Source: a virus
Taxonomy: Duplodnaviria > Caudoviricetes
Strand: one strand, 5' to 3'
Virus record (IMG/VR): IMGVR_UViG_3300034071_001210
Location: 1 to 64,000 of that record
DNA length: 64,000 nt
Shown: piece after piece, positions 7,654-32,405 of the stretch
Layout: each line of letters begins with the position of its first letter
Position numbering within the stretch: position 1 is the stretch's first letter
The notes under the pieces: generated by a model
Databases searched by the model: none
Told to the model about the DNA's origin: nothing
What the model saw: the letters and a program-made list of their open reading frames with translations, nothing else
Position numbers and translations under genes: made by a program

Positions 7654-7678
7654 TTATATTATTTAGGGTCCGATTTCA

Positions 7679-18583: not shown

Positions 18584-19626
18584 TCTTCATCCTTTGACAT
18601 TGCGGCATTATACGCTGAGTTTATAATATCAGCAAGCACATTTTTATTAATTGATTTTTCTGTAACTGTATCAATCTCTTCATGAAGTAACTGTAATGTA
18701 TCTTTATGAATGTCAACAGCCACTAGATCCGGGTTTGCTGTTACATCTTCTGTAACGGCTAACTCTGCTACTCCTGCTTCGTAGAACTTATCCAAGTATT
18801 TCTCAAAGGCTGGACCTTTAGTTCGGTTCTTGATAAAGATCTTAACATATGTATCTTTAAACTTTGAGTAGTCTAATTTTTCTGGGTTGGTTTCATCGTA
18901 GTCAAACGTATAGAAAAGCCTTTTTGGATTCTCGATAAATTCAAGCGTTCTTGCTGCAAAATCAAAGACATGAAACCCTTTGGCTTCCCAAACGTCTGAG
19001 AAAGCCATTTGATACTGAGATCCCAGGTAATGTATATTATCCCGGCTAGATTTAATATGATAATGCCCAGTAAGAACATATTCAAATTTGTCAAAATGTT
19101 TTGGGTCATAGCCATGCTCAATAAAGATACCACGAATACTCTGAAAGCCACACAACTCTAAATGTCCCAGTAAGAGAGAGCATGTAGTGTTGGTAATAAA
19201 CTCTGCCGATTGAATCTCATTCTCTGGGTTAATCCAAGGCAATAGTGCTACACAACCAGCAGAGGTTTGAATCTCTGTTGGCTCTGAGTGAATCTCCCAG
19301 TTGGAATACTGCTGGGCAATTTCTTGTAAAGAATTGACTGTATTGTTATTCTTGTAATAGGTATCATGATTGCCGCAGATAGCAATACACTTTACGCCAA
19401 GTTCTTGAAGAGGTTCAAAGAACCTTGTGCGAACCTGTTGAAGAGTCTTAAAATTAATATATTTTCTACGATCAAAGACATCACCTAAATGAAAGATGGT
19501 CTTAATATCGTTCTCTTTAATATATGGAAACAACTGTCCCTCAAAGAAGGACAGAAAGTATTCCAAGACTATTGGGGAATCTGCTTTATACCCAAAATGG
19601 GTATCATTAAGAATGATTGATTTCAT
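18580..19626 (-). CDS. gp47: Recombination endonuclease subunit (Mre11/SbcD-like)
   Basis: DTHFG, GDVFD, GNHD and GHYH metallophosphoesterase motifs. Confidence 0.95.
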   Translation of the reverse strand: MKSIILNDTHFGYKADSPIVLEYFLSFFEGQLFPYIKENDIKTIFHLGDVFDRRKYINFKTLQQVRTRFFEPLQELGVKCIAICGNHDTYYKNNNTVNSLQEIAQQYSNWEIHSEPTEIQTSAGCVALLPWINPENEIQSAEFITNTTCSLLLGHLELCGFQSIRGIFIEHGYDPKHFDKFEYVLTGHYHIKSSRDNIHYLGSQYQMAFSDVWEAKGFHVFDFAARTLEFIENPKRLFYTFDYDETNPEKLDYSKFKDTYVKIFIKNRTKGPAFEKYLDKFYEAGVAELAVTEDVTANPDLVAVDIHKDTLQLLHEEIDTVTEKSINKNVLADIINSAYNAAMSKDED

Positions 19627-20195
19627 ATATCAAGTGTATCTTTCTTTGACTTACGCTTACGCTTAACGCCCTCTTTCTTAGGTGGATTGAGCATAACACC
19701 AAATCTATCCATGTCAAGATCTGTAAGTCCAAAGAAATCTCTTCTACCAATGTCTACACCAGCATACACTTTATTAAACCAGTGATGAAAGTCTTTATCA
19801 TTCTGTTGTTCTGCATACTTGTATTGTGTATACTTTTCTTTCTTTTCTTTGTTTATTATACGAACAAAAGAAAACCAGCAAATCTGTGTAAGGTATCCGA
19901 ATGGACTCTTAGACTTTTCTGGATCAAAGTTACCAATATATGTGATACAGTTTAAGACAGCATCAGATACCATCTCTTCTCTATATGGGTAGTTTGCAAA
20001 ATTAGGACGAAACGAAAGTCTTGATGCAATCTTAAGAACACATTCTCCTATAAAATCTGGAAGCTTGGGTTTCTTTCTACCTGCATTTTCTGCATCATTG
20101 GACTTTTTACGATAATCAACTAAAGCATCATATAAATCAGAATTACTTACGTAATCTGCATCTGATGGTTTTTTTTTCTTGGATGGGTTTTTCAC
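19623..20195 (-). CDS. gp55: Late-transcription sigma factor
   Basis: YVSN, IGEC..KIA..LS..PNF.NY.YREEMVSDA, NFDPEKS.SPF.YLTQI motifs. Confidence 0.95.
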   Translation of the reverse strand: MKNPSKKKKPSDADYVSNSDLYDALVDYRKKSNDAENAGRKKPKLPDFIGECVLKIASRLSFRPNFANYPYREEMVSDAVLNCITYIGNFDPEKSKSPFGYLTQICWFSFVRIINKEKKEKYTQYKYAEQQNDKDFHHWFNKVYAGVDIGRRDFFGLTDLDMDRFGVMLNPPKKEGVKRKRKSKKDTLDI

Positions 20196-20201
20196 TATAT
20201 T

Positions 20202-20229
20202 AGTATATCACAAGTACTAGAGATATCAA
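20202..20229 (-). promoter_or_regulatory. Sigma70-type promoter TTGATA-N16-TATACT for gp55
   Basis: GTG start lies 6 nt after the -10 box. Confidence 0.65.
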
Positions 20230-20232
20230 CAA

Positions 20233-21042
20233 TTATCTAGTTAATAAATTCTCATAGCACTGCAATCCTTTAGAATCCATCTCATTAAAAAACGCAAGAG
20301 ATAGATCATTATTTACAATACTAATATGTGGACCAAATTTTGTTCCATGTGTATTTTTAATTTCTGGTTGATTTACATAATTAAAAAATTCGCTAATATT
20401 TTTATCAGTAATCTGATCCCATACTCGAGTACCAATTGTTGGTATTGTGTCATACTCTACACACCATTTAACACATTCTAATGTTCGCATACTACCAGTA
20501 ATTATATGGTTATTTTTAATATTTCGATTTTGCAAATATGAAACATGTGATTTGGCATCAATAGATTGTTCTTCCATTCTTCCAGGAATGATTGATAAGT
20601 ATTTAATATCATATGATAGAGCTAGAAGTGCAGTTGCTGCATCAGATGTGCCTGTAACATTTAATTTATAACTCTTTTTATGTTTTTGAGCAATCTTTAA
20701 TGCATGTTCAAATGGGGGGATTTTAATACATACCTGAACATTATTATTAGTAAATTTTGGTAATAGATCTATAAATTTTATAAAAGTTTTTTCTTCTACG
20801 ATAGATGAGGGAAATTGTATATGCAATTCCCCCAAATTATCTTGACGAATATCTGAAATAATATCTCCCAAGATTTTAGATTTTTCAATCCATTGATTTA
20901 AAGTTAAATCACCAGTTTTAAAAAATGCGTTAGGATTAGTAGTAATTCCTAACATACATTCCTTGGAAGAATGTGTTTTGATTTTAGTCCATAGATCTTT
21001 GATGTAAGTTGTATCTGCCGTATCAATAAAATAATTAAACAT
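20233..21042 (-). CDS. Divergent transaldolase/fructose-6-phosphate aldolase family protein
   Basis: FIDTAD, GITTNP, Schiff-base Lys in CIKIP, LNVT, S-x-x-x-GR and GSMR motifs. Confidence 0.8.
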   Translation of the reverse strand: MFNYFIDTADTTYIKDLWTKIKTHSSKECMLGITTNPNAFFKTGDLTLNQWIEKSKILGDIISDIRQDNLGELHIQFPSSIVEEKTFIKFIDLLPKFTNNNVQVCIKIPPFEHALKIAQKHKKSYKLNVTGTSDAATALLALSYDIKYLSIIPGRMEEQSIDAKSHVSYLQNRNIKNNHIITGSMRTLECVKWCVEYDTIPTIGTRVWDQITDKNISEFFNYVNQPEIKNTHGTKFGPHISIVNNDLSLAFFNEMDSKGLQCYENLLTR

Positions 21043-21400
21043 TTGTTTGTTCCTTAGTTAATAAAAAAGTATATGTATCTGCCCAGTTTTCAAATCGGTA
21101 TCCCTTATCATCAATGAAATAATCCACATGTGGTTTAGCAAAAAGTAATTCATCAAATGGTATATTCCATTTGTTCAACCATTGTGTTAATTTTAATGAA
21201 TGTTCTGCAATAATTTTTCCTTGATTATTCTCAAATGTTTTCATACCTCGAGCAGTATGAATTATAATATAATAACCTTTTTGTTTTAATAAATTTAAAG
21301 TTTTAACTGCACCATCCATTGGTTCAACATCATAATATTGTTGATTTATATTTTTATTTTGACAAATTGTCCCATCCATATCTACACATATTTTTAACAT
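21035..21400 (-). CDS. Capless HAD phosphatase (EcbF/BcbF capsule-phosphatase-like)
   Basis: DMDGT, HTARG, KP and FIDDK HAD motifs I-IV; 121 aa. Confidence 0.85.
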   Translation of the reverse strand: MLKICVDMDGTICQNKNINQQYYDVEPMDGAVKTLNLLKQKGYYIIIHTARGMKTFENNQGKIIAEHSLKLTQWLNKWNIPFDELLFAKPHVDYFIDDKGYRFENWADTYTFLLTKEQTNV

Positions 21401-21402
21401 AT

Positions 21403-22380
21403 TTAATTCAATGCCTCATTTAATAATTTGACACCAGTTATATACATTGCTTTTTGTCTATTTATATCATCATAATGTCTAGCACACATACTAACAAAAA
21501 TTAAACCTTGAATTAAAGAATATACAGCATAGTCATTGGGTGTTGTATAACTTTTAAAAATATTTAATGCTATATTTTTATTATCTGAATATGAATACTC
21601 TAAAGAATAATTAAATTTATTTTCTTCTGTTAGTTTATATTCATCATAGATAAAATATTCATAGCCACCATCAATTGAATGAAGTAACTTTGAATAATCA
21701 TATATACTTGAACCATAACATCCCTTGGAACCAAACGATCCACGGGGGTCAATAAATTTTATAGTTTTATCTGGTAAAGTTGAATTATAACCTAATAAAA
21801 TATTTGAAAAACACATATCACCATGAATAAAATTAAAATTACGATTATTTTTAATTATTTCAATTAGTCGTATTTTAATACTTGGCCATATTTTTTCAAA
21901 ATTTAAATATTTCTTTTTATTTAAAATAAAACATTCTGCAGAACATAATTCAGTAAAATAATTAAATTTAGTTTTTAAATTTAAATATTCATTTTCTGTT
22001 TTATCTATAAACATTTCTAAAATATACTTCTCTGCTTGATCATCAGATATATCAGATTTAGTATTTTTAAATTTTTCAATACTATTAAATAAAAGAGTTA
22101 TAATAGATTCCCAAAATTTTAATCCATGTGATTGGTGAATAAAATAATAAGCAATATTTTTATAACTATAATATTCTAATTCTAAATTGTAAGGTTTTTG
22201 AGTTTGATTAAAAGAATATATTTGAGGAAAATAACATTTTAATTCATTGGGAATTTGTTTATAATATTCAATTTCATCTAGCAACCTATCAGTTTCACTA
22301 CTTTTAAGTATTGATAAATTATCGATATTATATGTTATTCTATTATAGGCTCTGGTTATAAACGGCATTAAAAATTTCAT
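21403..22380 (-). CDS. APH/choline-kinase-fold sugar kinase (capsule-locus type)
   Basis: HGDMCFSNIL catalytic loop, IDPRG and YDYSKL motifs; start may be 22368. Confidence 0.8.
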   Translation of the reverse strand: MKFLMPFITRAYNRITYNIDNLSILKSSETDRLLDEIEYYKQIPNELKCYFPQIYSFNQTQKPYNLELEYYSYKNIAYYFIHQSHGLKFWESIITLLFNSIEKFKNTKSDISDDQAEKYILEMFIDKTENEYLNLKTKFNYFTELCSAECFILNKKKYLNFEKIWPSIKIRLIEIIKNNRNFNFIHGDMCFSNILLGYNSTLPDKTIKFIDPRGSFGSKGCYGSSIYDYSKLLHSIDGGYEYFIYDEYKLTEENKFNYSLEYSYSDNKNIALNIFKSYTTPNDYAVYSLIQGLIFVSMCARHYDDINRQKAMYITGVKLLNEALN

Positions 22381-22957
22381 CCACTGTAATAATATTTAAG
22401 TTATAAATTTTTGCAAATTCAAAGATTTGCTCACCCTTTGTCATTGTACCATCATCATTCATGATTTCAATGATTACTGAAATTGGTTTAAAACCTGCTA
22501 ACTTAACCAACTCCAAAGAAGATTCTGTATGACCACGCCGATCCTTTAACAAATTTGGTTTGCCACATAGTGGAAATAGGTGACCTGGTTGTGCCAAGTC
22601 AGATGGTTTACATTCATCATTTACAAACGTTTGGATAGTCTTTAAGCGATCATATACAGACATACCTGTACTAGTATCCTTTGTTGCATCAATAGATGTA
22701 GCAAAAGGAGTTCCCAGAGTATCTAAATTATTTGAATTCATCATTTTGATATTAAACTGGTCTAGTTTAACTTGAGTACATGGAATACACATCAATCCTT
22801 TCGCATGTCTCATAGCAAAAATTAAATTATATTTTGTTACTGCTTCGGCAGCAATAACAATGTCAGCTTCATCTTCTCGATTCGAATCATCAATGATGAT
22901 AACTGGTCTTCCATTTTTAACATCATTCAAGATTACGTTTAATTTTGTGTGTTCCAT
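22343..22957 (-). CDS. ribB: 3,4-dihydroxy-2-butanone-4-phosphate synthase
   Basis: DD.NREDEAD, GLMC, TGMS..DR, PGHLFPL, RRGHTE and EIMNDDG motifs. Confidence 0.93.
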   Translation of the reverse strand: MEHTKLNVILNDVKNGRPVIIIDDSNREDEADIVIAAEAVTKYNLIFAMRHAKGLMCIPCTQVKLDQFNIKMMNSNNLDTLGTPFATSIDATKDTSTGMSVYDRLKTIQTFVNDECKPSDLAQPGHLFPLCGKPNLLKDRRGHTESSLELVKLAGFKPISVIIEIMNDDGTMTKGEQIFEFAKIYNLNIITVDEIFNAVYNQSL

Positions 22958-23001
22958 ATATAAGAGTCAATCCTTTAAATTAGTATAGTGTCGTTGATAA
23001 C

Positions 23002-23029
23002 AATATATAGTGAGATTATAAGATGTCAA
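23002..23029 (-). promoter_or_regulatory. Sigma70-type promoter TTGACA-N16-TATATT for the ribB sub-operon
   Basis: Sits in the only sizeable intergenic gap of the island and begins CTTGACATCTT like the island's main promoter. Confidence 0.6.
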
Positions 23030-23056
23030 GTTATTATTGATACTTATTTTTTATTT

Positions 23057-23893
23057 TTATGCTATAGGGTTTCTTGATAAAATAATACCTTTATTGCCTT
23101 CTGTGCTTTTTAATTTTTTTATTTGACGTAGATCAATTCCTTGTTTTTGTAAATTGTAGACAGGTAATCGGTGAGGATTAATAAATTCCTTTAATAGGGT
23201 AGGTTCTTTTAATTCTTCAAATAATATATCATAGTTATTATACAAAGAATTTAATTTTGTTATGATTTTTTCATCACCAATAGCCCACCAATCATTTAGT
23301 TCTTCATCATAATTTAAATCTTTACGAATTTGTCTTAGTGCTGATTCTGTTGGCCAAGGTGGTGTAAGTATATTAAAATCTTCATACAATTTTATAGGTT
23401 TAAAAAAAATAAAATCACATCTTGATTTTATAACTACGTTATATTTTTTATTTGTTGTAAGCTGGTGTTTCTGCTTTAATTGTTCTACATCAGACCACTT
23501 ATACCACATCGAACAATTAGCTAAAATTCTATTAAATTTAATATTTTCATTTATTGTACCATTTATAATTAAGGAATCCCTCAATTCATATATTTTATGT
23601 GTTTTGTGTTTAAATGTTTCTTTTTTATCGTTAAAATTTTCTATATTACAATATACTGGATTAAAAATATCCCTAATTTTACTTTCATCAATAAGCTCTC
23701 CAGATACAATACCATCATTTTGATTTTCATCATAATAAAAATGTGATCTAAGACCAGTATCATTCCAGGTACTAATAAAAATATCAAAAGTACACGATGG
23801 ATTTACTTTAAATATATACTTTTCATAAGAATCATATAAAGCTTTAAAATTTGTTGTTCTAAAATGCCCCGATAATAATATTGCAATATTCAT
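23057..23893 (-). CDS. Uncharacterised glycosyltransferase-like protein (xIAI-x-LSG-x-x-R family), paralogue 1
   Basis: MNIAILLSGHFR, DIFISTW, SMWYK and YNVVIKSRCD motifs. Confidence 0.55.
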   Translation of the reverse strand: MNIAILLSGHFRTTNFKALYDSYEKYIFKVNPSCTFDIFISTWNDTGLRSHFYYDENQNDGIVSGELIDESKIRDIFNPVYCNIENFNDKKETFKHKTHKIYELRDSLIINGTINENIKFNRILANCSMWYKWSDVEQLKQKHQLTTNKKYNVVIKSRCDFIFFKPIKLYEDFNILTPPWPTESALRQIRKDLNYDEELNDWWAIGDEKIITKLNSLYNNYDILFEELKEPTLLKEFINPHRLPVYNLQKQGIDLRQIKKLKSTEGNKGIILSRNPIA

Positions 23894-24327
23894 AGTAATT
23901 GTTTATATTTGATAGGATAATCCGTGCAGATGCCATATGCATTATCATAAGATACACCTGGTTGCAGTTCTGGTAATACGCATATAGAATTAGAAGTCAA
24001 CATATTATTTTTAAAAGTCCATAAATAATTTTTACTTGTTAATACAACTTTATCAGTTTCATGCCAAAAACAATGAAGTTTGGAATTAACCATATATTCA
24101 AGAGCTTCAATATTTTTGGCATGACACCATAAAGGAAGGTCTTTTAAAAAATTTTCATTAATAGGATATTGTGGTGAGTCATGTCCCAAAAATAATGTTC
24201 CGGATATATACCAAACGTCAATTTCAACATCAAAACCAATAGAGACGGCTGCTTCGATATAATCTGGATGATTTTCCCAATTTATGTCTTGTCCAATAAG
24301 ATTCCCTCGGTGAGATATTATCTTCAT
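23890..24327 (-). CDS. Short PLC-like/glycerophosphodiester phosphodiesterase-fold protein
   Basis: ISHRGN, EN, DVEIDV, LGHD, WCHAKN and GICTD motifs. Confidence 0.8.
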   Translation of the reverse strand: MKIISHRGNLIGQDINWENHPDYIEAAVSIGFDVEIDVWYISGTLFLGHDSPQYPINENFLKDLPLWCHAKNIEALEYMVNSKLHCFWHETDKVVLTSKNYLWTFKNNMLTSNSICVLPELQPGVSYDNAYGICTDYPIKYKQLL

Positions 24328-24342
24328 ATATATGTTAGAGTA

Positions 24343-25536
24343 TTATGTACTCTTTCCCCATTTAACAATTGCTTCATGATATTCCTTTCCATGAGTTTTA
24401 TCAATTGATTGTCTCATGGCTTTAGCACCCGATAAAGTTCCATTTGGATGTCCATGGACAGCACCACCAGCATTTCCAAGATAATCATTACCAACCAAAG
24501 ATGTAATCCTGTCAACTAAACCCGGATGAAGACCACAACTCAAAGCAGGAAGGGTATTTCCATCACGAAGAATTCTAATGCATTCAAGAATTTCGTCTTC
24601 ATCGTCATTACTGTATCCACCAACCATTCCAGTTTGTATCGTATCAGCACCCATAAGAGTAGCCAATTGGCATATAACGGTCCAACTAATACTAAACTGA
24701 TTGTTTATACTAGTAGAAACTTTCGCACCACTACTTTGAAAATGTATATACATTGGCAAATCTAGTTTTCGGATGCTATTGTATACCCCGTAGCCACTCC
24801 ATACATTTATATGAACTCCATTGCCTCCAAGAGAATAAATTCTTTTAACACGATCCACGAGGATATGTGGATCACAATTTATTGTATGACAAAAAACAAC
24901 ATTCCTAGATTGTGAGTTCAAATAATTTGAAATTAGGTCTACTCTTTTATCAAGAGTACAGAAAGAAGGATTGGACATTATCTCATCTTCCTTAATAAAG
25001 TCAACACCACCATCAACAAGTTCTTTAACCATATCTAAAAGGGTTTCAGGACTTATTCCTATCTTGGGTTTGATAATTGCACCAAATAAAGGTTTATCAT
25101 ATTGACCCGTAAACTTTCTCATTCCAGTTATACCAAATTTTGGTCCCAAGAAATGCTGTGTAACTGTCTTAGGTAAATCAAGTTTGATAAGACGACACTT
25201 CTTAATTAAATCAATATCAACATGACCGCCCATGATTTGGCACAACAAATGACTTATTCCATCTGTTTCCCAATCGGTATTAATTACAGGAAATGCAATT
25301 TTAACATCTCCAGATAATTTCTTCTGTAAATCTAATTCATCTCCAAGTACTAGACAAGAATGGTTTTTAAATAGATCTTCGGTTTCCCACCGATTTCTTA
25401 CATTGGGATTTCCAACACTTTGTCCGATAGCAATATTCCAAGCAGCATCTCGTAGATTTGTATTTGATTCTATTCTATATGTTACTACAAAATATTTTTC
25501 TTTATCTAGTTCACGTTCACACACAAATATATTCAT
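24343..25536 (-). CDS. RuBisCO large-subunit superfamily protein (RuBisCO-like protein, probably non-carboxylating)
   Basis: GPKFG, IIKPKIG, signature GVDFIKEDE, LSCGLHPG and GGAVHGHP; lacks several carboxylase residues. Confidence 0.93.
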   Translation of the reverse strand: MNIFVCERELDKEKYFVVTYRIESNTNLRDAAWNIAIGQSVGNPNVRNRWETEDLFKNHSCLVLGDELDLQKKLSGDVKIAFPVINTDWETDGISHLLCQIMGGHVDIDLIKKCRLIKLDLPKTVTQHFLGPKFGITGMRKFTGQYDKPLFGAIIKPKIGISPETLLDMVKELVDGGVDFIKEDEIMSNPSFCTLDKRVDLISNYLNSQSRNVVFCHTINCDPHILVDRVKRIYSLGGNGVHINVWSGYGVYNSIRKLDLPMYIHFQSSGAKVSTSINNQFSISWTVICQLATLMGADTIQTGMVGGYSNDDEDEILECIRILRDGNTLPALSCGLHPGLVDRITSLVGNDYLGNAGGAVHGHPNGTLSGAKAMRQSIDKTHGKEYHEAIVKWGKST

Positions 25537-25539
25537 AAT

Positions 25540-25869
25540 TTATTCCTTATATTCGTTATATTTATCACCTATAACTGATGGTGTTTTTATACATAATACT
25601 TTACAATCTTCCAGAAATCTTGGTGTAGATGATTCATTAGGATCTATTACAAAAATATCTCCAACATGTATTTGTATATTATTTACAGTCATACTTCCAC
25701 TTAAAAGAACATTTATTTCTGTAGCAAGCTTATGATGATGTGGTGCCCAATATTCATCTTTAGTATGAGTTAACACCCCAACTTCAAATTCTGTAGTACG
25801 TAGAACAGATGGTACAAAATCACCAATAAACCAACCACGCAACATATCTTTTATTTTAAATAATTTCAT
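25540..25869 (-). CDS. Cupin-domain protein
   Basis: RGWFIGDF, H-H-H-K...E-I-N metal motif, GDIFVI and K.PS...DK. Confidence 0.8.
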   Translation of the reverse strand: MKLFKIKDMLRGWFIGDFVPSVLRTTEFEVGVLTHTKDEYWAPHHHKLATEINVLLSGSMTVNNIQIHVGDIFVIDPNESSTPRFLEDCKVLCIKTPSVIGDKYNEYKE

Positions 25870-26558
25870 AATATATATTCTTTAATTTTTGTAGCGGTAG
25901 CAACACCCCAATCATGTTCCAAAGTTGTTAAATGTTTTTGTTTTACATAATAGTCTGAATCAATGGCTTCATATACACAATATGGACCCGGATGATAATT
26001 TGTATCATGCATTAAAACATGTCCACCTAAATTTAAAAGATTAGTAAATCTCCAATCCTTTACAACTTGATCCACAGAATGCCAACCATCTATAATGAAC
26101 AAGTCTACCATCCCTACATTTAAATAATTTAAATATCCAACAATTTGTTCATAATTACTAGAATTTGTAGCCAATCCAAAATTATTTAAACTTTCATTAT
26201 ATATTGTATCAATCAAACCTTGTTGTAAGTCTACCCCAATATATTTGGTATGCAAAGATTTATTTTTTAAAATAAATTGAGTAGAAGAGTATTCTCTACT
26301 TCGGTTAACTCCAATTTCCAAAATAACATTTAATTTATTTTTTTGTTCTAAATCATCCATCAATGACTTTAAAACTTGTTTATTATTTTCTGAAAATTCT
26401 TGAGTAATTTTGTTATGCTTATCTTGAATATTTGTTAAGACCCCATCAATATATGCTTCAGGAATCCAATCATCTGAATTTTTATATTCAATTAAATCAG
26501 GAATAAATTTTAACCCTTTTATATCAGACGTGTTTTCATTATATTTAAATAATTTCAT
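25866..26558 (-). CDS. Class I SAM-dependent methyltransferase (Methyltransf_24-like)
   Basis: ILEIGV, YIGVD, DLFIIDGWH and GG.VLMHD motifs. Confidence 0.8.
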   Translation of the reverse strand: MKLFKYNENTSDIKGLKFIPDLIEYKNSDDWIPEAYIDGVLTNIQDKHNKITQEFSENNKQVLKSLMDDLEQKNKLNVILEIGVNRSREYSSTQFILKNKSLHTKYIGVDLQQGLIDTIYNESLNNFGLATNSSNYEQIVGYLNYLNVGMVDLFIIDGWHSVDQVVKDWRFTNLLNLGGHVLMHDTNYHPGPYCVYEAIDSDYYVKQKHLTTLEHDWGVATATKIKEYIL

Positions 26559-27385
26559 TACATGAACTTCCTTCCATTTATATCAATGTTTGTAAAGTAT
26601 TTAGTTGGTAAATCATAGAGATCTTTTTCAAAATAAGGATACATCATATGCATATTTATTTTAGGATCGGATAAAATATTTAAAAGATTGGGTGAATAAT
26701 TGGTATCCTTTACTCCATTCCATTTTTGTTCAAAAAGTTGTCTACAGACAGAATAATATTTTTGGCTTTCTGTATGCGCTGAATTTAAATCAGTCCCCGG
26801 TATTTTATAAACAATATGTGGTAATGGATTCCAGATTCTTAATTGTCTAGGATCATTTATACTAGTATGTTCGTGATTATATTTTATTGCTCTTAAAAAG
26901 TAATCACCTTCGTGATATCCTATAGTACAAAATCTTTCATCCCACATACCTATTTTTTTGACTGCTTCAGCAGTATAACTCATAAATCCACATCCTTGAG
27001 AAAAAGTTATTAAATTATATCTTTTATGATATAATAACAACTGTTCAAAAAAATTAGGGTGAAATATGTTATCATCATGACTGTGCATCAACAAATCACA
27101 ATCCGGATTATTTAAATCTTTAAAACCATTTATAAAAATTTCATTATAATTTCTACTTAAATGTCCACAAGAAAAATCCGGTCTCATAGTATTATGTAAA
27201 ACTTTAACTTTATCGTGATATTTTAAATCTAAGTTAAAATTACTATGGTTATTTACTATATAAACTTCTTTTGACCAATTATCATATACTGTATTTACGA
27301 ATAAATCAGTATTAAATAAAGAATCTAAAGTAGCATGCAGATCATTATACCGATTATAAGTAACTATATAAAATTTTAATTTCAT
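26558..27385 (-). CDS. GT2-like glycosyltransferase
   Basis: IVTYNR, IVNN, HDD, KKIGMWDERF and EGDYFLR motifs. Confidence 0.75.
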   Translation of the reverse strand: MKLKFYIVTYNRYNDLHATLDSLFNTDLFVNTVYDNWSKEVYIVNNHSNFNLDLKYHDKVKVLHNTMRPDFSCGHLSRNYNEIFINGFKDLNNPDCDLLMHSHDDNIFHPNFFEQLLLYHKRYNLITFSQGCGFMSYTAEAVKKIGMWDERFCTIGYHEGDYFLRAIKYNHEHTSINDPRQLRIWNPLPHIVYKIPGTDLNSAHTESQKYYSVCRQLFEQKWNGVKDTNYSPNLLNILSDPKINMHMMYPYFEKDLYDLPTKYFTNIDINGRKFM

Positions 27386-28119
27386 CTTTGTAATTCTCCG
27401 AATAAATTTATTTTTGTAACAGGAATATTTAAAACATTATCAATGTAATATGTCAATAAAGAATGACCACATGTTAATTTATTGGGGTCTGTTTTTAAAA
27501 AATATGGAACGACTTTAGTATTAACTTCCTTATAAATATTAAAAATTTTTAATAAATTTTGAGGAGATGAGATAATATAAAAATCGTGATATCCGTCAAG
27601 TGGATTACTAAGTGATATATAAATGTTATTAGGATTTAAATCTTTAATCTGGGGGGTATAGGTGGGTTTAAAATCTGGTCTACTACAAATTACAAGATCA
27701 TAATCTTGTTTTAATAAATATTGAACTCCAGTATATCGTTTATAATATTGAGAAAAAAACCATTCAAATCTTCTATCTTGATTATATTTTTTAGTTATAA
27801 TATTTTTTACTAAAAAAGATTTACTTTTAAAATTTTGTTTTAAAGCCACATCTTGGTAATTTTCCATAATTAATTTTTTACAATTATGAAGATTTTTTAA
27901 ATATTCTTCATCAAGTGCAGTTGGATCAAATTTTGCATTACATAATGCACCACGACTACAAATATCACCAGTATCTATCCTTTTACCATTGGTTTCATAT
28001 ATACTTAAATAAAAATCAGATAGACAGTCAAAAGGTTCCATAATAAATTGTCGCCAATTTTCTATTGTATAATCAAGTGTTCTATACTGTCCAGTTAATA
28101 ATAGTGCGGTTTTTAACAT
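27382..28119 (-). CDS. Uncharacterised glycosyltransferase-like protein, paralogue 2
   Basis: TALLLTGQYR, SQYYK and YDLVICSRPD motifs. Confidence 0.55.
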   Translation of the reverse strand: MLKTALLLTGQYRTLDYTIENWRQFIMEPFDCLSDFYLSIYETNGKRIDTGDICSRGALCNAKFDPTALDEEYLKNLHNCKKLIMENYQDVALKQNFKSKSFLVKNIITKKYNQDRRFEWFFSQYYKRYTGVQYLLKQDYDLVICSRPDFKPTYTPQIKDLNPNNIYISLSNPLDGYHDFYIISSPQNLLKIFNIYKEVNTKVVPYFLKTDPNKLTCGHSLLTYYIDNVLNIPVTKINLFGELQR

Positions 28120-28877
28120 ATAATTCTTTTTGATATAAATTCTTCTAAGTCTTTAGGAGTACCCAAAGAATAAAAACTAGTATCAGTCATTTGAAAATAT
28201 TTTATTTTATATTGTGGTAATAACTCATTAAAGGTTAAAGAAACATAAAATTCTCCATTATATGTTATATTTTTTTTAATTATATCTTCTGCAGATTTAA
28301 CAAAAGTATTCCCTTGTTTCCAAAAATGTATTCCATTTAACATTAATTTACTTATAGCAATCTTTTCTGAAAAGTTAATACCATAACCAAATTCATTTGT
28401 CTCAATAAAAGAGTAGGGAGTTTTTGAGAAAGGTATTATTGTATTTGGGTCTATATGGTTATATGTTGTAACAAGTGCATCACAATCAGGTTGATTTATT
28501 GTGTTTACAAAATTATCTAATTCACCAATATTCCAATTAATATACTGATCGCAATTTGTTACTATTAATTGTGAATCATTATCAATATATTTTTTTGCCA
28601 ACAGAACCGATTCTGCTGCTCCTTTAGTTAAAATTTTACTACTAATAATTCTAGCATTTGGATTGATGGTATATATCAAGTTCTGTAGACGATCATTCCA
28701 ATCTTTGTTATCATATTCTCTTATAATAAAAATATAATTTGCATTTGTTATACCTAAAGATTCTACAGAATGTTGTAAAATAGGTTTATTAAAAATTTTT
28801 ATTAAAGGTTTTGGGTCTAAATATCCCTCTTCTTTAAACCGTCTACCTTCTCCGACTAATGGTATCACTATATTCAT
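28113..28877 (-). CDS. Sugar-phosphate nucleotidyltransferase (NTP_transferase family, BcbE-like)
   Basis: IPLVGEGRRF...PKPLI, TKGAAESV, NCDQ, EK, NGEFYV and LGTP.DL motifs. Confidence 0.85.
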   Translation of the reverse strand: MNIVIPLVGEGRRFKEEGYLDPKPLIKIFNKPILQHSVESLGITNANYIFIIREYDNKDWNDRLQNLIYTINPNARIISSKILTKGAAESVLLAKKYIDNDSQLIVTNCDQYINWNIGELDNFVNTINQPDCDALVTTYNHIDPNTIIPFSKTPYSFIETNEFGYGINFSEKIAISKLMLNGIHFWKQGNTFVKSAEDIIKKNITYNGEFYVSLTFNELLPQYKIKYFQMTDTSFYSLGTPKDLEEFISKRIIC

Positions 28878-29623
28878 AGATATTTTAAATTTGTTCGTTG
28901 TATAAGATTTATTGAAAAATTAATTGGATTTATATTGAGAGTATTTTCATTTCTAACCCAGTGTCCAAGATAATTTTCTCCATATTTTGGATTTATTATT
29001 TTATTTAATCTTAAAAATTCAGGATAAACACTACAAAAGATATCCATATTTTGAGTATTAGAAAAAGCAAAAATATCTGGCATTGGTTTATTTGAATTGT
29101 TAAATGATTCTTGATCAAAAAAATATTTTTCTGGAATATTAATATTATTTAATTGTGTATTATATTCATTAAAATTAATTGAGTTAAAATATATTAAATC
29201 AGTTCTTGTTCTTAAAACCAAATCATATTTAAAATTACATTGTGTTTCATAATCTCGTTTTAAATTATTTGCCATATACATAGAATAAAATAAACTACAA
29301 AGATTATTTTGTTTAGCATTTTGCGATGATTCTGTTAGTTGAACGTATTTATCAAAGTTTTTTTGAGGTTCAATTAAATATTTTTTTGGTTTATATAAAT
29401 TTTTTATAATAATATCAGAGTCTTTTAAAAGAGTTCCAACACTATTTAATTGTAAATCCTGAGCCGAATTAAAAAATTTATTTATATCTTCTTTATCATA
29501 CCAAGTATGAATAAAAAAATCAATATCGTGTTCCAAATTAGGTTTTATGATATATTCATTTAAATATTCATATCCTAAATTTAAATATCGTGGTTGTCCC
29601 GATAAACAAATTGCAATTTTCAT
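28874..29623 (-). CDS. Uncharacterised glycosyltransferase-like protein, paralogue 3
   Basis: MKIAICLSGQPR, DFFIHTW, SLFYS, YDLVLRTRTD and DIFAF motifs. Confidence 0.55.
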   Translation of the reverse strand: MKIAICLSGQPRYLNLGYEYLNEYIIKPNLEHDIDFFIHTWYDKEDINKFFNSAQDLQLNSVGTLLKDSDIIIKNLYKPKKYLIEPQKNFDKYVQLTESSQNAKQNNLCSLFYSMYMANNLKRDYETQCNFKYDLVLRTRTDLIYFNSINFNEYNTQLNNINIPEKYFFDQESFNNSNKPMPDIFAFSNTQNMDIFCSVYPEFLRLNKIINPKYGENYLGHWVRNENTLNINPINFSINLIQRTNLKYL

Positions 29624-30465
29624 TTAATTATTCTCTTCTTAGTATACTCTAACGAAGACATGTATTCTAGCATCGATTCTTTTGATTTAACATTTGTAGT
29701 AATTACATCCCACAACTTATGGTTTTCTTTATTATAAAATGTATTGCAATCCGATGCTTTTGATTTTGGATGGTTCATGTGAACTACGTAGCCCGAATCA
29801 ATCCATCCTATTTTATAGCCAAGAATATAAAATCTATATAAACGTTCCTGATCTTCAGGACCCCAGTCAATAAATTCTTCATTTTCACCAAAACCATTTT
29901 TATATGAATCCGTATTAAAAAATTGAATACCACCAGTAGTAATTATTTTACCCAATCCTATTGATGTAAATAAATTCAACCCTGGATGATCTGTAAAAAC
30001 TGGATATTTATCTGTTAAATAAGAAATCCATGAAGTATCTGGATCTGTTAAAATTTTATTTAATTGTTGTTCAGTAAACTCCCAAAAAGTTAAAAATGAT
30101 TCTTTTTCATAAGGATAAACAAAATCATATTCATTTTCTAACATTTTTAAACATTTTTTTACATTATCTTGTGGAATTAGAATATCACAATCATAGTTAA
30201 TTGTAAATTTGGTATCTACAAGCTCTAACATATCATTTAATATTTTTGTTCTATGAAAAAAAGAAGTATCATTAGTTTGTTCAAATATATAAGTTAATCG
30301 GTCGTCTTTAACTAAATTTGTTTTTTGTTCTGAATCAACTTCTTTTACAATAATTTTACATTTGTAAAACTTTAATAAAAATGTAACAACAGAATTTAAA
30401 TTTCTTAATCTTTCTGGTGAATCTATTCTAACTGGAATTATTGCTGTCAAATCTTGACTATTCAT
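29620..30465 (-). CDS. GT2/GT7-C-type glycosyltransferase
   Basis: IIPVRID..ER..NL, YDCD (DxD) and GENEEFIDWGPED motifs. Start at 30465 (ATGA overlap) is more likely than the track start of 30534. Confidence 0.8.
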   Translation of the reverse strand: MNSQDLTAIIPVRIDSPERLRNLNSVVTFLLKFYKCKIIVKEVDSEQKTNLVKDDRLTYIFEQTNDTSFFHRTKILNDMLELVDTKFTINYDCDILIPQDNVKKCLKMLENEYDFVYPYEKESFLTFWEFTEQQLNKILTDPDTSWISYLTDKYPVFTDHPGLNLFTSIGLGKIITTGGIQFFNTDSYKNGFGENEEFIDWGPEDQERLYRFYILGYKIGWIDSGYVVHMNHPKSKASDCNTFYNKENHKLWDVITTNVKSKESMLEYMSSLEYTKKRIIK

Positions 30466-31250
30466 AATATAGTCCAATCTTTGCAGTAAATATCTGACCA
30501 GTTTTTGGGAGCACTGGGCGCAGATCCAAACCATTTTGAAGGTGCAATAGTTTTCTTGGAATCACTCAACCAAGATCCCCACCAGCTAAAAGAACTATTA
30601 GCAATAATATGATAATTGCATAAAGTCATTAAACACATATCAACATATTTATCGTTACTTTCTGTAAATACTACTTTACGATTTAACGATTTAAAAAACT
30701 CAATTGCTTGTGGCATATCATCACTAAAGACATAGATTAAAAGATCATCAGGCAATAACTTTAGTGCTTCTGCATAATAATCCACTGAACATATTGGGTG
30801 ACTATCTTGCAACTGAACATAATCACCTAACCTTAGATGTATCGATATGGTTGGTAATCTTGTTAAAGATCGCATATCTACTGCTTGCTTATAAATTCTA
30901 TCATTAAAAGAAAATTCTTTTAATAATTGTTCTCTATAATCTACAAAATATTTTTCACTTTGAAAATAACCAGTAATATCTGTGTTATCTTGGATTCCAA
31001 AAATACCAGCATTATATGTAAACTGATGTTCCTGAGCTTTATTTAAAGCCGCATAATCACTACTATCAGCTGCAGATAGATTTGAAAAACATTCAGGTAA
31101 ACAAAAATTATAGTATTCATTATTAGTTTTTAACTTATATGGAACACCAAATTGATATTTTCTAGTTTTAGCAATAGAATATAATGTAGCATATTGAAAC
31201 ATCTGATTTCCAAATCTACCATTTGTTCCAATTCTATTATATGTAATCAT
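30462..31250 (-). CDS. GT11 alpha-1,2-fucosyltransferase-like glycosyltransferase
   Basis: GRFGNQMFQY, GYFQSEKYF, HLRLGDY, FSDD and IIANSSFSWWG motifs. Confidence 0.9.
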   Translation of the reverse strand: MITYNRIGTNGRFGNQMFQYATLYSIAKTRKYQFGVPYKLKTNNEYYNFCLPECFSNLSAADSSDYAALNKAQEHQFTYNAGIFGIQDNTDITGYFQSEKYFVDYREQLLKEFSFNDRIYKQAVDMRSLTRLPTISIHLRLGDYVQLQDSHPICSVDYYAEALKLLPDDLLIYVFSDDMPQAIEFFKSLNRKVVFTESNDKYVDMCLMTLCNYHIIANSSFSWWGSWLSDSKKTIAPSKWFGSAPSAPKNWSDIYCKDWTIL

Positions 31251-31882
31251 AAATACGCTGAATCCCTATCTTCTAGTGTATTATCAGTAAAGTGTTGCCA
31301 CTTGTTAGCTGAATCTCTATTATCTGATTGATAAAAATATGGTTTATTTGGTGTATATACTTTAGTTTGAAATTGTAATGATGATGCTCCTACATCCCAT
31401 GGCTGTTTTAAATCATGAATACAATGTTTTGCTACACGAGACATATAGTCTCTATATATGGGAGTTACATATAAAATAGCATGAGTGGCTAGAATTCCAC
31501 CTATTCTCATATATTCTTCTGTATATCTTTTAGTTTGGTATCCACGGTTACCACTAGAAATACCAAGGTAAATGCCATCTGTATCGTCTGGAATATCCAT
31601 AATTGGATTAAATGAATCTGTAAATTCTGCGTCATCTTCTAAAATTAGAAGTGGCGTTGTATACTGCACATCATCCAAAATATCAATATGGGATTGTGCA
31701 CAGCCAACATAATGTGCATTACTTGGTATAGTGCCTTCTGGAGCTGGAATGATTCTAGCAGATTTTCTATAAGTATGTTTAAACCCAAACTTTAGAAGAT
31801 TGTCTTGCATAATTTCAGCATTTTTAGTTGCTGAATCCAAATTAATCCATACGACTGGTATTTCGCGTAAATCAATAATCAT
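31247..31882 (-). CDS. GT25-like glycosyltransferase
   Basis: WINLD, GCAQSH, LILEDD and THAI motifs. Confidence 0.8.
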   Translation of the reverse strand: MIIDLREIPVVWINLDSATKNAEIMQDNLLKFGFKHTYRKSARIIPAPEGTIPSNAHYVGCAQSHIDILDDVQYTTPLLILEDDAEFTDSFNPIMDIPDDTDGIYLGISSGNRGYQTKRYTEEYMRIGGILATHAILYVTPIYRDYMSRVAKHCIHDLKQPWDVGASSLQFQTKVYTPNKPYFYQSDNRDSANKWQHFTDNTLEDRDSAYL

Positions 31883-31896
31883 ATAACCTCATTTTA

Positions 31897-31933
31897 AATA
31901 TAATACAACTTATAAAGATGTCAAGTTATTTAG
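31897..31933 (-). promoter_or_regulatory. Island promoters: TTGACA-N16-TATATT (31897-31924) plus late-type CTAAATA (31927-31933)
   Basis: Both motifs are read directly upstream of the first island gene. Confidence 0.6.
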
Positions 31934-31961
31934 TTGACATTTTCTTGACTTCTACTATACT
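31934..31961 (+). promoter_or_regulatory. Sigma70-type promoter TTGACA-N16-TATACT for uvsY
   Basis: ATG 31968 lies 6 nt after the -10 box; divergent from the island promoter. Confidence 0.7.
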
Positions 31962-31967
31962 GTCTTT

Positions 31968-32405
31968 ATGAATCTAGAAGACCTTAAACTCAATATTTCC
32001 AAAGATGCATCTGTTGACTCCTCAGAACTAGGAAATGAGGCTATTAGAACTCCTCAGCTGCATAGTAAGTACCTGTGTCTTCATGCAGATTTTAAACTGA
32101 TTCTGTGTAAACAGGTAAATGACTTAGCAATTCTTAAACTTCGTAAGTGGAAGATCTTTACTGGTAAGGCTAGTCGTGAAGAATTGGAAGCATGGGGAGA
32201 GGACCCAAATGGACTAACTCTACTAAAGACTGATGTGGAAAAGTTTATTGAGGCAGATCCTAAGATTATTGAACTAAAATTAAAGATTGCTGTAATTGAA
32301 GTTAAGGTTAAGATGGTTGAAGAATTTTTAAAAGTTCTCAATAATAGAAACTTCTCTATTAAGTCCGCTATTGAGTGGTTCAAGATGACGCAGGGTATCG
32401 TCTAA
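31968..32405 (+). CDS. uvsY: Recombination mediator UvsY
   Basis: P.LHSKY, LLKTDV..FIEAD and R.FSIK.AIEW.K motifs. Confidence 0.92.
   Translation: MNLEDLKLNISKDASVDSSELGNEAIRTPQLHSKYLCLHADFKLILCKQVNDLAILKLRKWKIFTGKASREELEAWGEDPNGLTLLKTDVEKFIEADPKIIELKLKIAVIEVKVKMVEEFLKVLNNRNFSIKSAIEWFKMTQGIV

What the first reader, a model, noticed from the sequence alone, without database searches (positions are those of the whole stretch)
24343..25536. RuBisCO-superfamily gene in a T4-like phage with a rewired active site
Seen, aligned by eye to spinach RbcL numbering: K175/K177 (IIKPK), the carbamylation/Mg motif K201-x-D203-E204 (DFIKEDE), S379/G381 (LSCG) and G403/G404 are retained. E60 (AIGQSVG), N123 (IMGGH), H294/R295 (IHFQSSG), H327 (IQTG) and loop-6 K334 (GMVGGY) appear substituted. 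Established: those residues are needed for RuBP carboxylation and for binding the second phosphate. Inference: an Mg-dependent enolase/isomerase on a monophosphorylated ketose, not a CO2-fixation gene. I recall RuBisCO-like genes being noted on metagenomic phage scaffolds, so the novelty lies more in function and context than in presence alone.
Basis: partly seen in the sequence, partly recalled or inferred. Interest (0 to 1): 0.8.

Follow-up and report, generated by a model that had tools for sequence, protein, structure and literature searches.

The report
Phage RuBisCO-like enzyme in glycan cassette
A T4-like phage carries an intact relative of the CO2-fixing enzyme RuBisCO that cannot fix CO2; it sits beside, and in some viruses is fused to, a sugar-activating enzyme inside a surface-sugar gene island, which points to an untested sugar-building job for the RuBisCO fold.

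Summary
ORF 24343-25536 (-) encodes a 397-aa RuBisCO large-subunit homologue (Pfam 6e-36; model TM 0.88 to form III RuBisCO) in a T4-like myovirus. A formal alignment to a bona fide form I enzyme confirms every residue call. K175, K177, K201, D203, E204, S379, G381, G403 and G404 are kept. E60, T65, N123, H294, R295, H298, H327 and K334 are replaced, mostly identically in 100 relatives. It is not a carboxylase, and it falls below the cut-off of every curated RuBisCO or RLP family.

Context gives the function. In 83 related loci the gene lies next to a sugar nucleotidyltransferase (80 loci), a mini GDPD-like phosphodiesterase (67) and a metal cupin (56). All these loci are glycosyltransferase and methyltransferase islands. 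The same cassette occurs in Pelagibacter, Azospirillum, Nonomuraea, CPR bacteria and DPANN archaea. Natural RLP-nucleotidyltransferase(-cupin) fusions exist, one on a giant-virus-like contig.

Best reading: a Mg-dependent enolising isomerase that supplies an unusual sugar phosphate for nucleotide activation and glycan decoration. The substrate is unknown.

Phage RLPs were reported in 2019 (Jaffe et al.) with function left unclear. This scan has already found the same cassette on at least 40 other genomes.

The parts
24343..25536 (-). RuBisCO-like protein (RLP), 397 aa, of the phage/'form IV-like' clade. The Mg/carbamate triad and P1 phosphate site are kept. The carboxylation and P2-site residues are replaced (S268/A271/Q301 subtype).
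25540..25869 (-). Small metal cupin, 109 aa, with an invariant H44-x-H46...E51 motif, directly upstream of the RLP. It is a core cassette partner, present in 56 of 83 loci, and is fused to RLP-NTase in P0308 and P0309.
23890..24327 (-). Miniature GDPD-like phosphodiesterase, 145 aa, that keeps HR..EN..ExD..HD. It lies directly downstream of the RLP and is a core cassette partner in 67 of 83 loci.
28113..28877 (-). Sugar-phosphate nucleotidyltransferase, 254 aa. It is the most constant partner of the RLP (80 of 83 loci). Here it is separated from the RLP by the methyltransferase, GT2 and one DUF7796-like gene.
25866..26558 (-). Methyltransf_24 (CmcI/TylF-like) methyltransferase, 230 aa. It is a frequent partner, enriched with the S/A/Q subtype of the RLP.
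26558..27385 (-). GT2-like glycosyltransferase, 275 aa (weak Pfam match).
27382..28119 (-). DUF7796-like putative transferase, paralogue 1 of 3.
28874..29623 (-). DUF7796-like putative transferase, paralogue 2 of 3.
23057..23893 (-). DUF7796-like putative transferase, paralogue 3 of 3.
   Evidence: same cluster as the other two
29620..31882 (-). Three further glycosyltransferase-like genes: GT7C-like, GT11 (fucosyltransferase family, E 2e-23) and GT25-like.
20233..22957 (-). Separate sub-module: RibB (DHBP synthase), APH-fold kinase, EcbF/BcbF-type HAD phosphatase and a TAL/FSA-like aldolase. It is collinear with the Synechococcus phage S-SKS1 operon whose RibB is fused to the same nucleotidyltransferase family. 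It is not a general partner of the RLP.
19623..20195 (-). gp55 late sigma factor. Left border of the low-GC island.
31968..32405 (+). UvsY. Right border of the low-GC island.

Best explanation
The gene encodes a functional, non-carboxylating member of the RuBisCO superfamily. It belongs to a distinct branch whose job is biosynthetic.

Proposed mechanism (inferred):
- Carbamylated K182 with D184 and E185 holds Mg2+.
- The backbone cradle G335/G357/G358 holds one phosphate of a keto-sugar phosphate.
- K156 and the clade-specific residues (Q39, N43, H105, D107, Q267, Y308) form and reprotonate a cis-enediolate. The enzyme therefore isomerises the substrate by a carbonyl shift or epimerisation. 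It does not add CO2.

Proposed pathway (inferred): the product feeds the partner nucleotidyltransferase (28113-28877), which makes an unusual NDP-activated sugar or sugar phosphate. The cupin, the GDPD-like protein and the methyltransferase tailor or process it. The island's DUF7796-like and GT2/GT11/GT25 transferases then place it on a glycan, either the host envelope or the virion.

Shown here: fold, residue pattern, clade, gene linkage and fusions. Inferred: the chemistry, the order of steps, the substrate and the glycan target.
For: - Fold and residues.
- In 100 clade members, G38, Q39, N43, G104, D107, K156, K158, K182, D184, E185, Q267, Y308, S333, C334, G335 and G357 never vary. The altered site is therefore under selection and not decaying.
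- Linkage: of 83 related loci, 80 carry the nucleotidyltransferase, 67 the GDPD-like gene and 56 the cupin. These are mostly adjacent and on the same strand.
- Accessory genes in these loci are nucleotide-sugar dehydratases/epimerases, FkbM and C-methyltransferases, and GT1/GT4/WavE/GT-D transferases.
- The same cassette flanks cellular clade members: Pelagibacter beside GT9 and CTP_transf_3 genes, Verrucomicrobia, Patescibacteria, Beckwithbacteria, Planctomycetes, Elusimicrobia, Nonomuraea, Sphingobacteriales, Balneola, Nanoarchaeota, and Azospirillum oleiclasticum with GDPD-like, RLP, cupin and NTase in a row.
- Natural fusions: P0122 is RLP-NTase. P0308 and P0309 are RLP-NTase-cupin. P0308 appears in two independent assemblies, on a contig with Pox_VLTF3.
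- In RLP-less cyanophages the same NTase family is fused to other sugar-phosphate enzymes: RpiB in Bellamy, RibB in S-SKS1 and HAD_2 in S-CAM9/B3. An enediolate-forming sugar-phosphate isomerase fits that slot.
Against: - No substrate or product is identified and nothing was assayed.
- Nearly all RLP loci carry an NTase of plain size with no kinase or mutase in the core, so it is unclear how an RLP product becomes an NTase substrate.
- The NTase, cupin and GDPD-like trio exists without the RLP in cyanophages and Azospirillales. The RLP is therefore an optional feeder or tailoring step, and it could act on the NDP-sugar instead of on a sugar phosphate.
- In this window the NTase is 2.6 kb away from the RLP, not adjacent.
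- The 83 loci include near-duplicates, so the counts overstate independent observations.
- P0122 rests on one 2.5-kb contig.
Confidence: 0.62

Rival explanations
1. It is a salvage enzyme like the characterised RLPs: a DK-MTP-1-P enolase, or a 5-methylthioribulose-1-P (or 5-deoxyribulose-1-P) 1,3-isomerase. It would work with the cupin as in the Rhodospirillum/Rhodopseudomonas MTA-isoprenoid shunt, clearing by-products of the island's SAM-dependent enzymes.
For: - An adjacent RLP-cupin pair is exactly the arrangement of rlp1 and the cupin methylsulfurylase (RPA2169/RPA2170) (PMC5893883).
- In the tree the clade is sister to the YkrW/MtnW-like RLPs.
- The window has an APH-fold kinase and a HAD phosphatase, the folds of MtnK and MtnX.
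- Some related loci carry radical-SAM genes.
Against: - No MtnA, MtnB, MtnP or MtnN genes appear in any cassette inspected.
- The constant partner is a nucleotidyltransferase, which has no role in salvage.
- Scores are far below the MtnW cut-offs (164.5 against 409).
- The position of the enolase's Lys (N123) is an invariant Gly.
- The kinase and HAD genes belong to the RibB module, found in only 1 of 20 other RLP phage records.
- The cupin profile found only cassette-type cupins in 81 genomes of the order that holds Azospirillum oleiclasticum.
- SAM methyltransferases yield SAH, not MTA.
Confidence: 0.1
2. It acts after activation. The RLP, with the cupin, enolises a keto intermediate of an NDP-sugar made by the NTase from a common sugar-1-phosphate, as a 3,4-ketoisomerase or epimerase would. 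The P1 cradle would bind the beta-phosphate of the nucleotide sugar.
For: - The core cassette has no kinase or mutase, so a common sugar-1-P as the NTase substrate is the simplest input.
- SDR-type 4,6-dehydratase/epimerase genes, which create NDP-4-keto sugars, lie in 32 of the 83 loci.
- Small cupins are the usual NDP-keto-sugar isomerases and epimerases (general knowledge).
- In the fusions the order is RLP-NTase-cupin.
Against: - No RuBisCO-superfamily enzyme is known to bind a nucleotide sugar.
- The SDR genes are absent from most loci, including this window's island.
- The cupin has a metal site (HxH..E), unlike the metal-free RmlC and FdtA types.
Confidence: 0.15
3. It is a beta-keto-acid decarboxylase or a carboxyl-transfer/hydrolase enzyme of the OiaX/OiaT type (D-apiose catabolism RLPs). 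It would make a ketose phosphate from an oxo-acid sugar phosphate.
For: - Characterised RLPs of this kind exist (Carter et al. 2018, cited in PMC6389311).
- The OiaX model is among the hits (E 1.5e-42).
- The Mg/carbamate site suits beta-keto-acid chemistry.
Against: - The score is 145.9 against a cut-off of 700.
- The OiaX-like sequences keep E60, T65, N123, H294, H327 and K334, all of which this clade has lost.
- They branch outside the clade.
- No dehydrogenase or acid-sugar kinase is conserved in the cassette.
Confidence: 0.06
4. It is a CO2-fixing or otherwise RuBP-dependent RuBisCO that boosts host carbon fixation, as a classical photosynthesis auxiliary gene would.
For: Superfamily membership and the retained K175, K201, D203 and E204. 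The phage's structural genes resemble those of cyanomyoviruses.
Against: - E60, N123, H294, R295, H298, H327 and K334 are all replaced.
- It is below the form I, II and III cut-offs.
- No small subunit, phosphoribulokinase or carboxysome genes lie nearby.
- The cellular carriers include heterotrophs such as Pelagibacter and Nonomuraea.
Confidence: 0.02

Closest known systems
'Form IV-like' RuBisCO-related proteins of phages (Myoviridae) and Beckwithbacteria, Jaffe, Castelle, Dupont & Banfield 2019, Mol Biol Evol (PMC6389311)
   Same: Phage-borne and partly myoviral. A divergent RLP with only part of the catalytic set. In my tree a Beckwithbacteria sequence (L091) lies inside the same 100%-supported clade as the window protein.
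   Different: That paper left the function 'unclear', and the passages I searched say nothing of the gene neighbourhood. Added here: the nucleotidyltransferase, cupin and GDPD-like cassette, the fusions, and the wider cellular range (SAR11, Azospirillum, Nonomuraea, DPANN). I did not compare sequences with their data set directly.
DeepYkr RLP (Rlp1, 5-methylthioribulose-1-P 1,3-isomerase) with its adjacent cupin methylsulfurylase, MTA-isoprenoid shunt of Rhodospirillum rubrum and Rhodopseudomonas palustris (PMC5893883)
   Same: A non-carboxylating RLP that enolises a ketose monophosphate, encoded next to a small cupin that acts on its product.
   Different: There is no mtnP or mtnA context here. 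The constant partner is a nucleotidyltransferase within glycan islands. The clade is separate. Homology between the two cupins was not shown.
YkrW/MtnW 2,3-diketo-5-methylthiopentyl-1-phosphate enolase (PDB 2oej/2oem, 4nas, 2zvi)
   Same: Nearest sampled sister group in the tree. It shares the Mg/carbamate triad, K175, a GGA-HGHP phosphate cradle, and loss of the R295/H327/K334 P2 site.
   Different: MtnW has Lys at the N123 position, where this clade has an invariant Gly. MtnW keeps H294, where this clade has Gln. K177 is kept here but is Cys in MtnW. The score is below the family cut-off. The genomic context differs.
GDP-D-glycero-alpha-D-manno-heptose type pathways (isomerase GmhA, kinase HddA, HAD phosphatase GmhB, nucleotidyltransferase HddC)
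   Same: The logic is the same: an enediol-type sugar-phosphate isomerase feeds a nucleotidyltransferase inside an LPS or capsule locus. Related cyanophage islands do carry GmhA and HldE annotations next to the GDPD-like gene.
   Different: The isomerase here has the RuBisCO fold, not the SIS fold. The RLP core cassette lacks the kinase and phosphatase steps.

Membership tests
RuBisCO large-subunit superfamily (fold) | Sequence match to the catalytic TIM-barrel domain and the N-terminal domain; RuBisCO-type fold | tested here: met
   PF00016 at 124.7 bits (cut-off 30.1) and PF02788 at 20.9 bits (cut-off 20.7). AF2 model pLDDT 90.7 with Foldseek TM 0.88 to 2d69.
Bona fide RuBisCO (forms I, II, III) | Complete catalytic and RuBP-binding set: E60, T65, N123, K175, K177, K201, D203, E204, H294, R295, H298, H327, K334, S379, G381, G403, G404 | tested here: not met
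   E60G, T65N, N123G, H294Q, R295S, H298A, H327Q and K334Y in the alignment to a form I enzyme. Most of these are invariant in 100 clade members.
Bona fide RuBisCO (forms I, II, III) | Score above the curated NCBIfam cut-offs (TIGR03326, NF003252, NF010002) | tested here: not met
   183.2 against 497; 175.1 against 438; 106.5 against 489.
YkrW/MtnW DK-MTP-1-P enolase | Score above the equivalog cut-off (NF007095, TIGR03332) | tested here: not met
   164.5 against 409; 133.7 against 513.6. The Alicyclobacillus control scores 529.
YkrW/MtnW DK-MTP-1-P enolase | Catalytic Lys at the RuBisCO N123 position, and a methionine-salvage gene context (mtnK/A/B/X/D) | tested here: not met
   Invariant Gly104 at that position, where the MtnW control has K. 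No mtn genes in the cassettes. The role of that Lys is from memory of the G. kaustophilus work.
DeepYkr RLP (MTRu-1-P 1,3-isomerase) | Adjacent cupin methylsulfurylase plus mtnP/mtnA in the genome; clade membership | tested here: inconclusive
   A cupin is adjacent, but no named DeepYkr reference sequence was available for the tree. The cupin profile found only cassette-type cupins in 81 genomes of the order that holds Azospirillum oleiclasticum.
OiaX/OiaT apiose-pathway RLPs | Score above the NF042437 cut-off; retention of E60, N123, H294, H327 and K334 | tested here: not met
   145.9 against 700. The OiaX-like controls keep those residues and this protein does not.
Phage/Beckwithbacteria 'form IV-like' RLP clade (Jaffe et al. 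2019) | Phage-encoded divergent RLP that groups with Beckwithbacteria sequences, apart from the other RLPs | tested here: met
   A clade of 20 phage and 17 cellular rows, including Beckwithbacteria L091, has SH-aLRT 100 and stem length 0.8. The paper's own sequences were not on hand.
RLP-nucleotidyltransferase-cupin-GDPD-like cassette (operational definition from this scan) | RLP with the G-Q-S-V-G-N-P, GG(H/Q)xD, IKPK, KEDE, FQ(K/S)SG, GGY and SCG signatures, and an NTase, cupin and GDPD-like gene in the same operon | tested here: met
   All signatures are present. The cupin is at 25540-25869, the GDPD-like gene at 23890-24327 and the NTase at 28113-28877, all on the same strand.

The most novel reading that the evidence does not exclude
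A whole branch of the RuBisCO superfamily, carried by T4-like phages, giant viruses, SAR11, CPR bacteria, DPANN archaea and scattered bacteria, would be an anabolic enzyme. It would make the sugar-phosphate precursor of a so far undescribed nucleotide-activated sugar (or ketose or polyol phosphate) donor for surface glycans. That would be the first biosynthetic, glycan-building role for the RuBisCO fold. Viruses would use it to re-dress the host envelope or their own particles.
Probability: 0.5. Interest if true: 0.8.

Novelty: new variant of a known kind. Interest (0 to 1): 0.6.

Why it matters
Every characterised RuBisCO-like protein works in sulfur or methionine salvage or in sugar-acid catabolism. 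This clade has its own invariant active site. It is tied, and in three proteins fused, to a nucleotidyltransferase inside glycan islands of abundant ocean and lake viruses and of SAR11.

If it does feed a nucleotide-sugar pathway, three things follow:
- It adds a new reaction type and a new metabolic role to one of the best-studied enzyme folds.
- It predicts an unknown sugar in the envelopes of very abundant plankton or on virions.
- It gives a handle on how large phages remodel host surfaces, for example to exclude superinfection.

The question is directly testable, because cultured bacteria (Azospirillum oleiclasticum, Nonomuraea rosea) carry the cassette.

Tried and rejected
- **GDPD-like fold.** A single-sequence AlphaFold2 run on the GDPD-like protein gave pLDDT 37.7 and is unusable. 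I used a profile search against solved structures instead.
- **RibB as RLP feeder.** I tested whether the window's RibB module supplies the RLP (Ru5P to DHBP to RLP). S-SKS1 has an NTase::RibB fusion and a collinear kinase, HAD and TAL run. However, RibB was found in only 1 of 20 other RLP-bearing phage records, and in 0 of 5 complete ones. I treat the RibB module as a separate module that shares the island. Host RibB could still supply DHBP, so the idea is weakened but not excluded.
- **Cupin as methylsulfurylase.** A link between the cupin and the MTA-shunt methylsulfurylase was not found. The cupin profile found only cassette-type cupins in 81 genomes of the order that holds Azospirillum oleiclasticum. 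No named Rhodospirillum sequence was available.
- **Isolated phages.** The RLP has no tblastn match in 50,697 GenBank phage records and no PHROG family. No sequenced isolate in that collection carries it.
- **Whole genome.** None is held for the window.
- **Active-site subtypes.** The split into K/D/H and S/A/Q variants looks lineage-bound, so I do not count the covariation as independent evidence.
- **Complex prediction.** Not run. The fusions already argue for joint action, and a dimer pass would only reflect likeness to solved RuBisCOs.
Full report
**1. The observation**

The minus-strand ORF 24343-25536 encodes 397 residues.
- It matches Pfam RuBisCO_large at E 6e-36 and the N-terminal domain just above its cut-off.
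- It matches solved form III RuBisCOs and RLPs at E about 1e-38 and roughly 26-27% identity.
- An AlphaFold2 model built on 39 relatives has mean pLDDT 90.7. It superposes on Pyrococcus form III RuBisCO (2d69) with TM 0.88.

The window is a T4-like myovirus. It has a gp23 capsid protein (54% identity to cyanomyoviruses), portal, large terminase, gp46/gp47, gp55 and UvsY. The portal is only 47-49% identical to those of phages of Methylophilales, Prochlorococcus, Synechococcus and Pelagibacter, so the host is open.

**2. Residue check**

I aligned the protein with a bona fide form I large subunit (Azospirillum, NCBIfam 781 bits against a cut-off of 438). The alignment also held a form III-like protein, a true MtnW, OiaX-like RLPs and clade members.
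- Kept (spinach numbering): K175, K177, K201, D203, E204, H292, S379, G381, G403, G404.
- Replaced: E60G, T65N, W66N, N123G, H294Q, R295S, H298A, H327Q, K334Y, G380C.

In 100 members of the clade, sixteen active-site positions never vary. They include the substitutions G38, Q39, N43, G104, Q267, Y308 and C334. This is a selected alternative active site and not a decaying gene.

Three positions of the former distal-phosphate site come in two combinations: K/D/H (43 sequences) and S/A/Q (42 sequences, including this window). The split follows lineages in the tree, so I do not over-read it.

**3. What it is not**

The protein is below every curated cut-off:

| Family | Score | Cut-off |
|---|---|---|
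| Form III RuBisCO | 183 | 497 |
| Large-subunit subfamily | 175 | 438 |
| MtnW | 164 | 409 |
| OiaX | 146 | 700 |

It lacks the Lys that the MtnW control has at the N123 position.

**4. Clade**

A maximum-likelihood tree of 102 sequences puts 20 phage and 17 cellular proteins in one clade (SH-aLRT 100, stem 0.8). That clade is sister to MtnW/YkrW-like RLPs. Phage and cellular rows are intermixed: a Pelagibacter chromosome copy pairs with a phage copy, and a Beckwithbacteria copy lies inside the clade.

Caveat: the non-clade RLPs were drawn by two sequence motifs, and no named IV-Photo, IV-NonPhoto or DeepYkr references were available. The sister relation is therefore provisional.

The clade matches the 'form IV-like' phage/Beckwithbacteria group of Jaffe et al. 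2019, who left its function unclear.

**5. Context: the main evidence for function**

The gene lies in a low-GC island (25-29% GC against 34-39% elsewhere) of 16 co-oriented genes between gp55 and uvsY.

I clustered the ORFs of 83 related loci from IMG/VR and metagenomes. Their RLPs are 55-86% identical to the window's.

| Neighbour of the RLP | Loci (of 83) |
|---|---|
| ~240-aa nucleotidyltransferase | 80 |
| ~149-aa GDPD-like protein | 67 |
| ~107-aa cupin | 56 |

These genes are usually adjacent to the RLP and on the same strand. Some loci are truncated and some are near-duplicates, so the counts are rough.

Details of the two small partners:
- The GDPD-like protein keeps the catalytic HR..EN..ExD..HD pattern of glycerophosphodiester phosphodiesterases (profile E 1e-4 to 7e0v).
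- The cupin keeps an invariant HxH...E metal motif.

The other genes in these loci are Methyltransf_24, FkbM and C-methyltransferases, SDR dehydratases/epimerases, DUF7796-like proteins and assorted glycosyltransferases.

Cellular clade members keep the same partners. Examples:
- Pelagibacter sp. Uisw_094, where the cassette lies beside GT9 and CTP_transf_3 genes.
- Nonomuraea rosea.
- Azospirillum oleiclasticum, with GDPD-like, RLP, cupin and NTase in a row.

**6. Fusions**

- P0122 (667 aa) is RLP-NTase. It is known from one short contig.
- P0308 (813 aa) and P0309 (817 aa) are RLP-NTase-cupin.
- P0308 is found in two independent assemblies. Its 10-kb contig carries Pox_VLTF3, a hallmark of giant viruses.

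**7. Cassettes without the RLP**

About 20 sequenced cyanomyoviruses have the NTase and the GDPD-like gene, some with the cupin as well, but no RLP. In them the NTase is fused to other sugar-phosphate enzymes:

| Phage | NTase fusion partner |
|---|---|
| Bellamy | RpiB |
| S-SKS1 | RibB |
| S-CAM9, B3 and many metagenomic proteins | HAD_2 |

Two Azospirillales genomes have NTase, cupin, NTase, HAD_2 and GDPD-like genes without an RLP.

The RLP is therefore an optional feeder or tailoring enzyme of a wider activation module. It occupies the kind of slot that enediolate-forming sugar-phosphate isomerases fill elsewhere.

**8. The RibB sub-module of this window**

RibB, an APH-fold kinase, an EcbF/BcbF-type HAD phosphatase and a TAL/FSA-like protein (20233-22957) are collinear with S-SKS1. 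RibB occurs in only 1 of 20 other RLP-bearing phage records. I read it as a second pathway of heptose-pathway logic (make a sugar phosphate, phosphorylate, dephosphorylate, activate) that shares the island. It may also share the island's single NTase.

**9. Mechanism (inferred)**

The kept residues are those that bind Mg2+ through a lysine carbamate, stabilise an enediolate and cradle one phosphate. The lost residues bind the second phosphate and handle CO2 and the carboxylated intermediate.

The likeliest chemistry is Mg-dependent enolisation followed by reprotonation, that is, isomerisation of a keto-sugar monophosphate. The product would then be nucleotide-activated, tailored by the cupin, the methyltransferase and the GDPD-like protein, and transferred to a glycan.

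Pelagimyophage and cyanomyophage LPS-type gene islands have been proposed to alter the host surface against co-infection (PMC7029224). Virion glycosylation is an alternative target.

**10. Standing**

The presence of RLPs in phages is published. My full-text searches found no paper that links RLPs to nucleotidyltransferases. Earlier notes of this scan describe the same cassette on at least 40 other genomes and reach the same reading. My results were obtained independently before I read them, and they agree.

Noticed in passing
L173:7001-8428 (Synechococcus phage S-SKS1, SWZG_00042): The gene annotated only as 3,4-dihydroxy-2-butanone 4-phosphate synthase is a nucleotidyltransferase::RibB fusion. 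It is followed by kinase, HAD and TAL-like genes collinear with window 20233-22957.
   Followed up: partly
L172:6992-8149 (Synechococcus phage Bellamy, gene 206): The gene annotated 'phosphatase' is a nucleotidyltransferase::RpiB (LacAB_rpiB) fusion. It is followed by the cassette-type cupin. The same island holds a double-NTase protein, a class II aldolase and the GDPD-like gene.
   Followed up: partly
P0202 (583 aa, metagenomic): A TIR domain fused to the N-terminus of a complete RLP, about 29% identical to the window protein. It might be a defence-type architecture.
   Followed up: no
P0156 and P0174 (726 and 742 aa): IF-2B-family (ribose-1,5-bisphosphate or MTR-1-P isomerase-like) domains fused to full RuBisCO large subunits. 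These are presumably AMP-pathway fusions and are unrelated to the phage clade.
   Followed up: no
window 20001-32000: The glycan island is much more AT-rich (25-29% GC) than the structural and replication modules (34-43% GC). That suggests acquisition from, or amelioration toward, a very AT-rich source.
   Followed up: no
window 23057-23893, 27382-28119, 28874-29623: Three paralogues of a DUF7796-like family share the AxxxSGxxR ... YxxIIxxRxD motifs. The same family (my clusters 4 and 9) follows the RLP in many loci and is the best candidate for the transferase that uses the cassette's product.
   Followed up: partly
L182:3993-5075 and 6389-8830: The RLP-NTase-cupin triple fusion sits on a contig with a poxvirus-type late transcription factor VLTF3 gene. 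The cassette therefore also occurs in giant viruses of eukaryotes.
   Followed up: partly
RLP positions 268, 271 and 301 (window numbering) across 100 homologues: The former P2-phosphate site occurs as K/D/H or S/A/Q, with few intermediates. The Methyltransf_24 gene is found in 20 of 42 S/A/Q loci but only 3 of 30 K/D/H loci. This might mark two substrate variants.
   Followed up: partly
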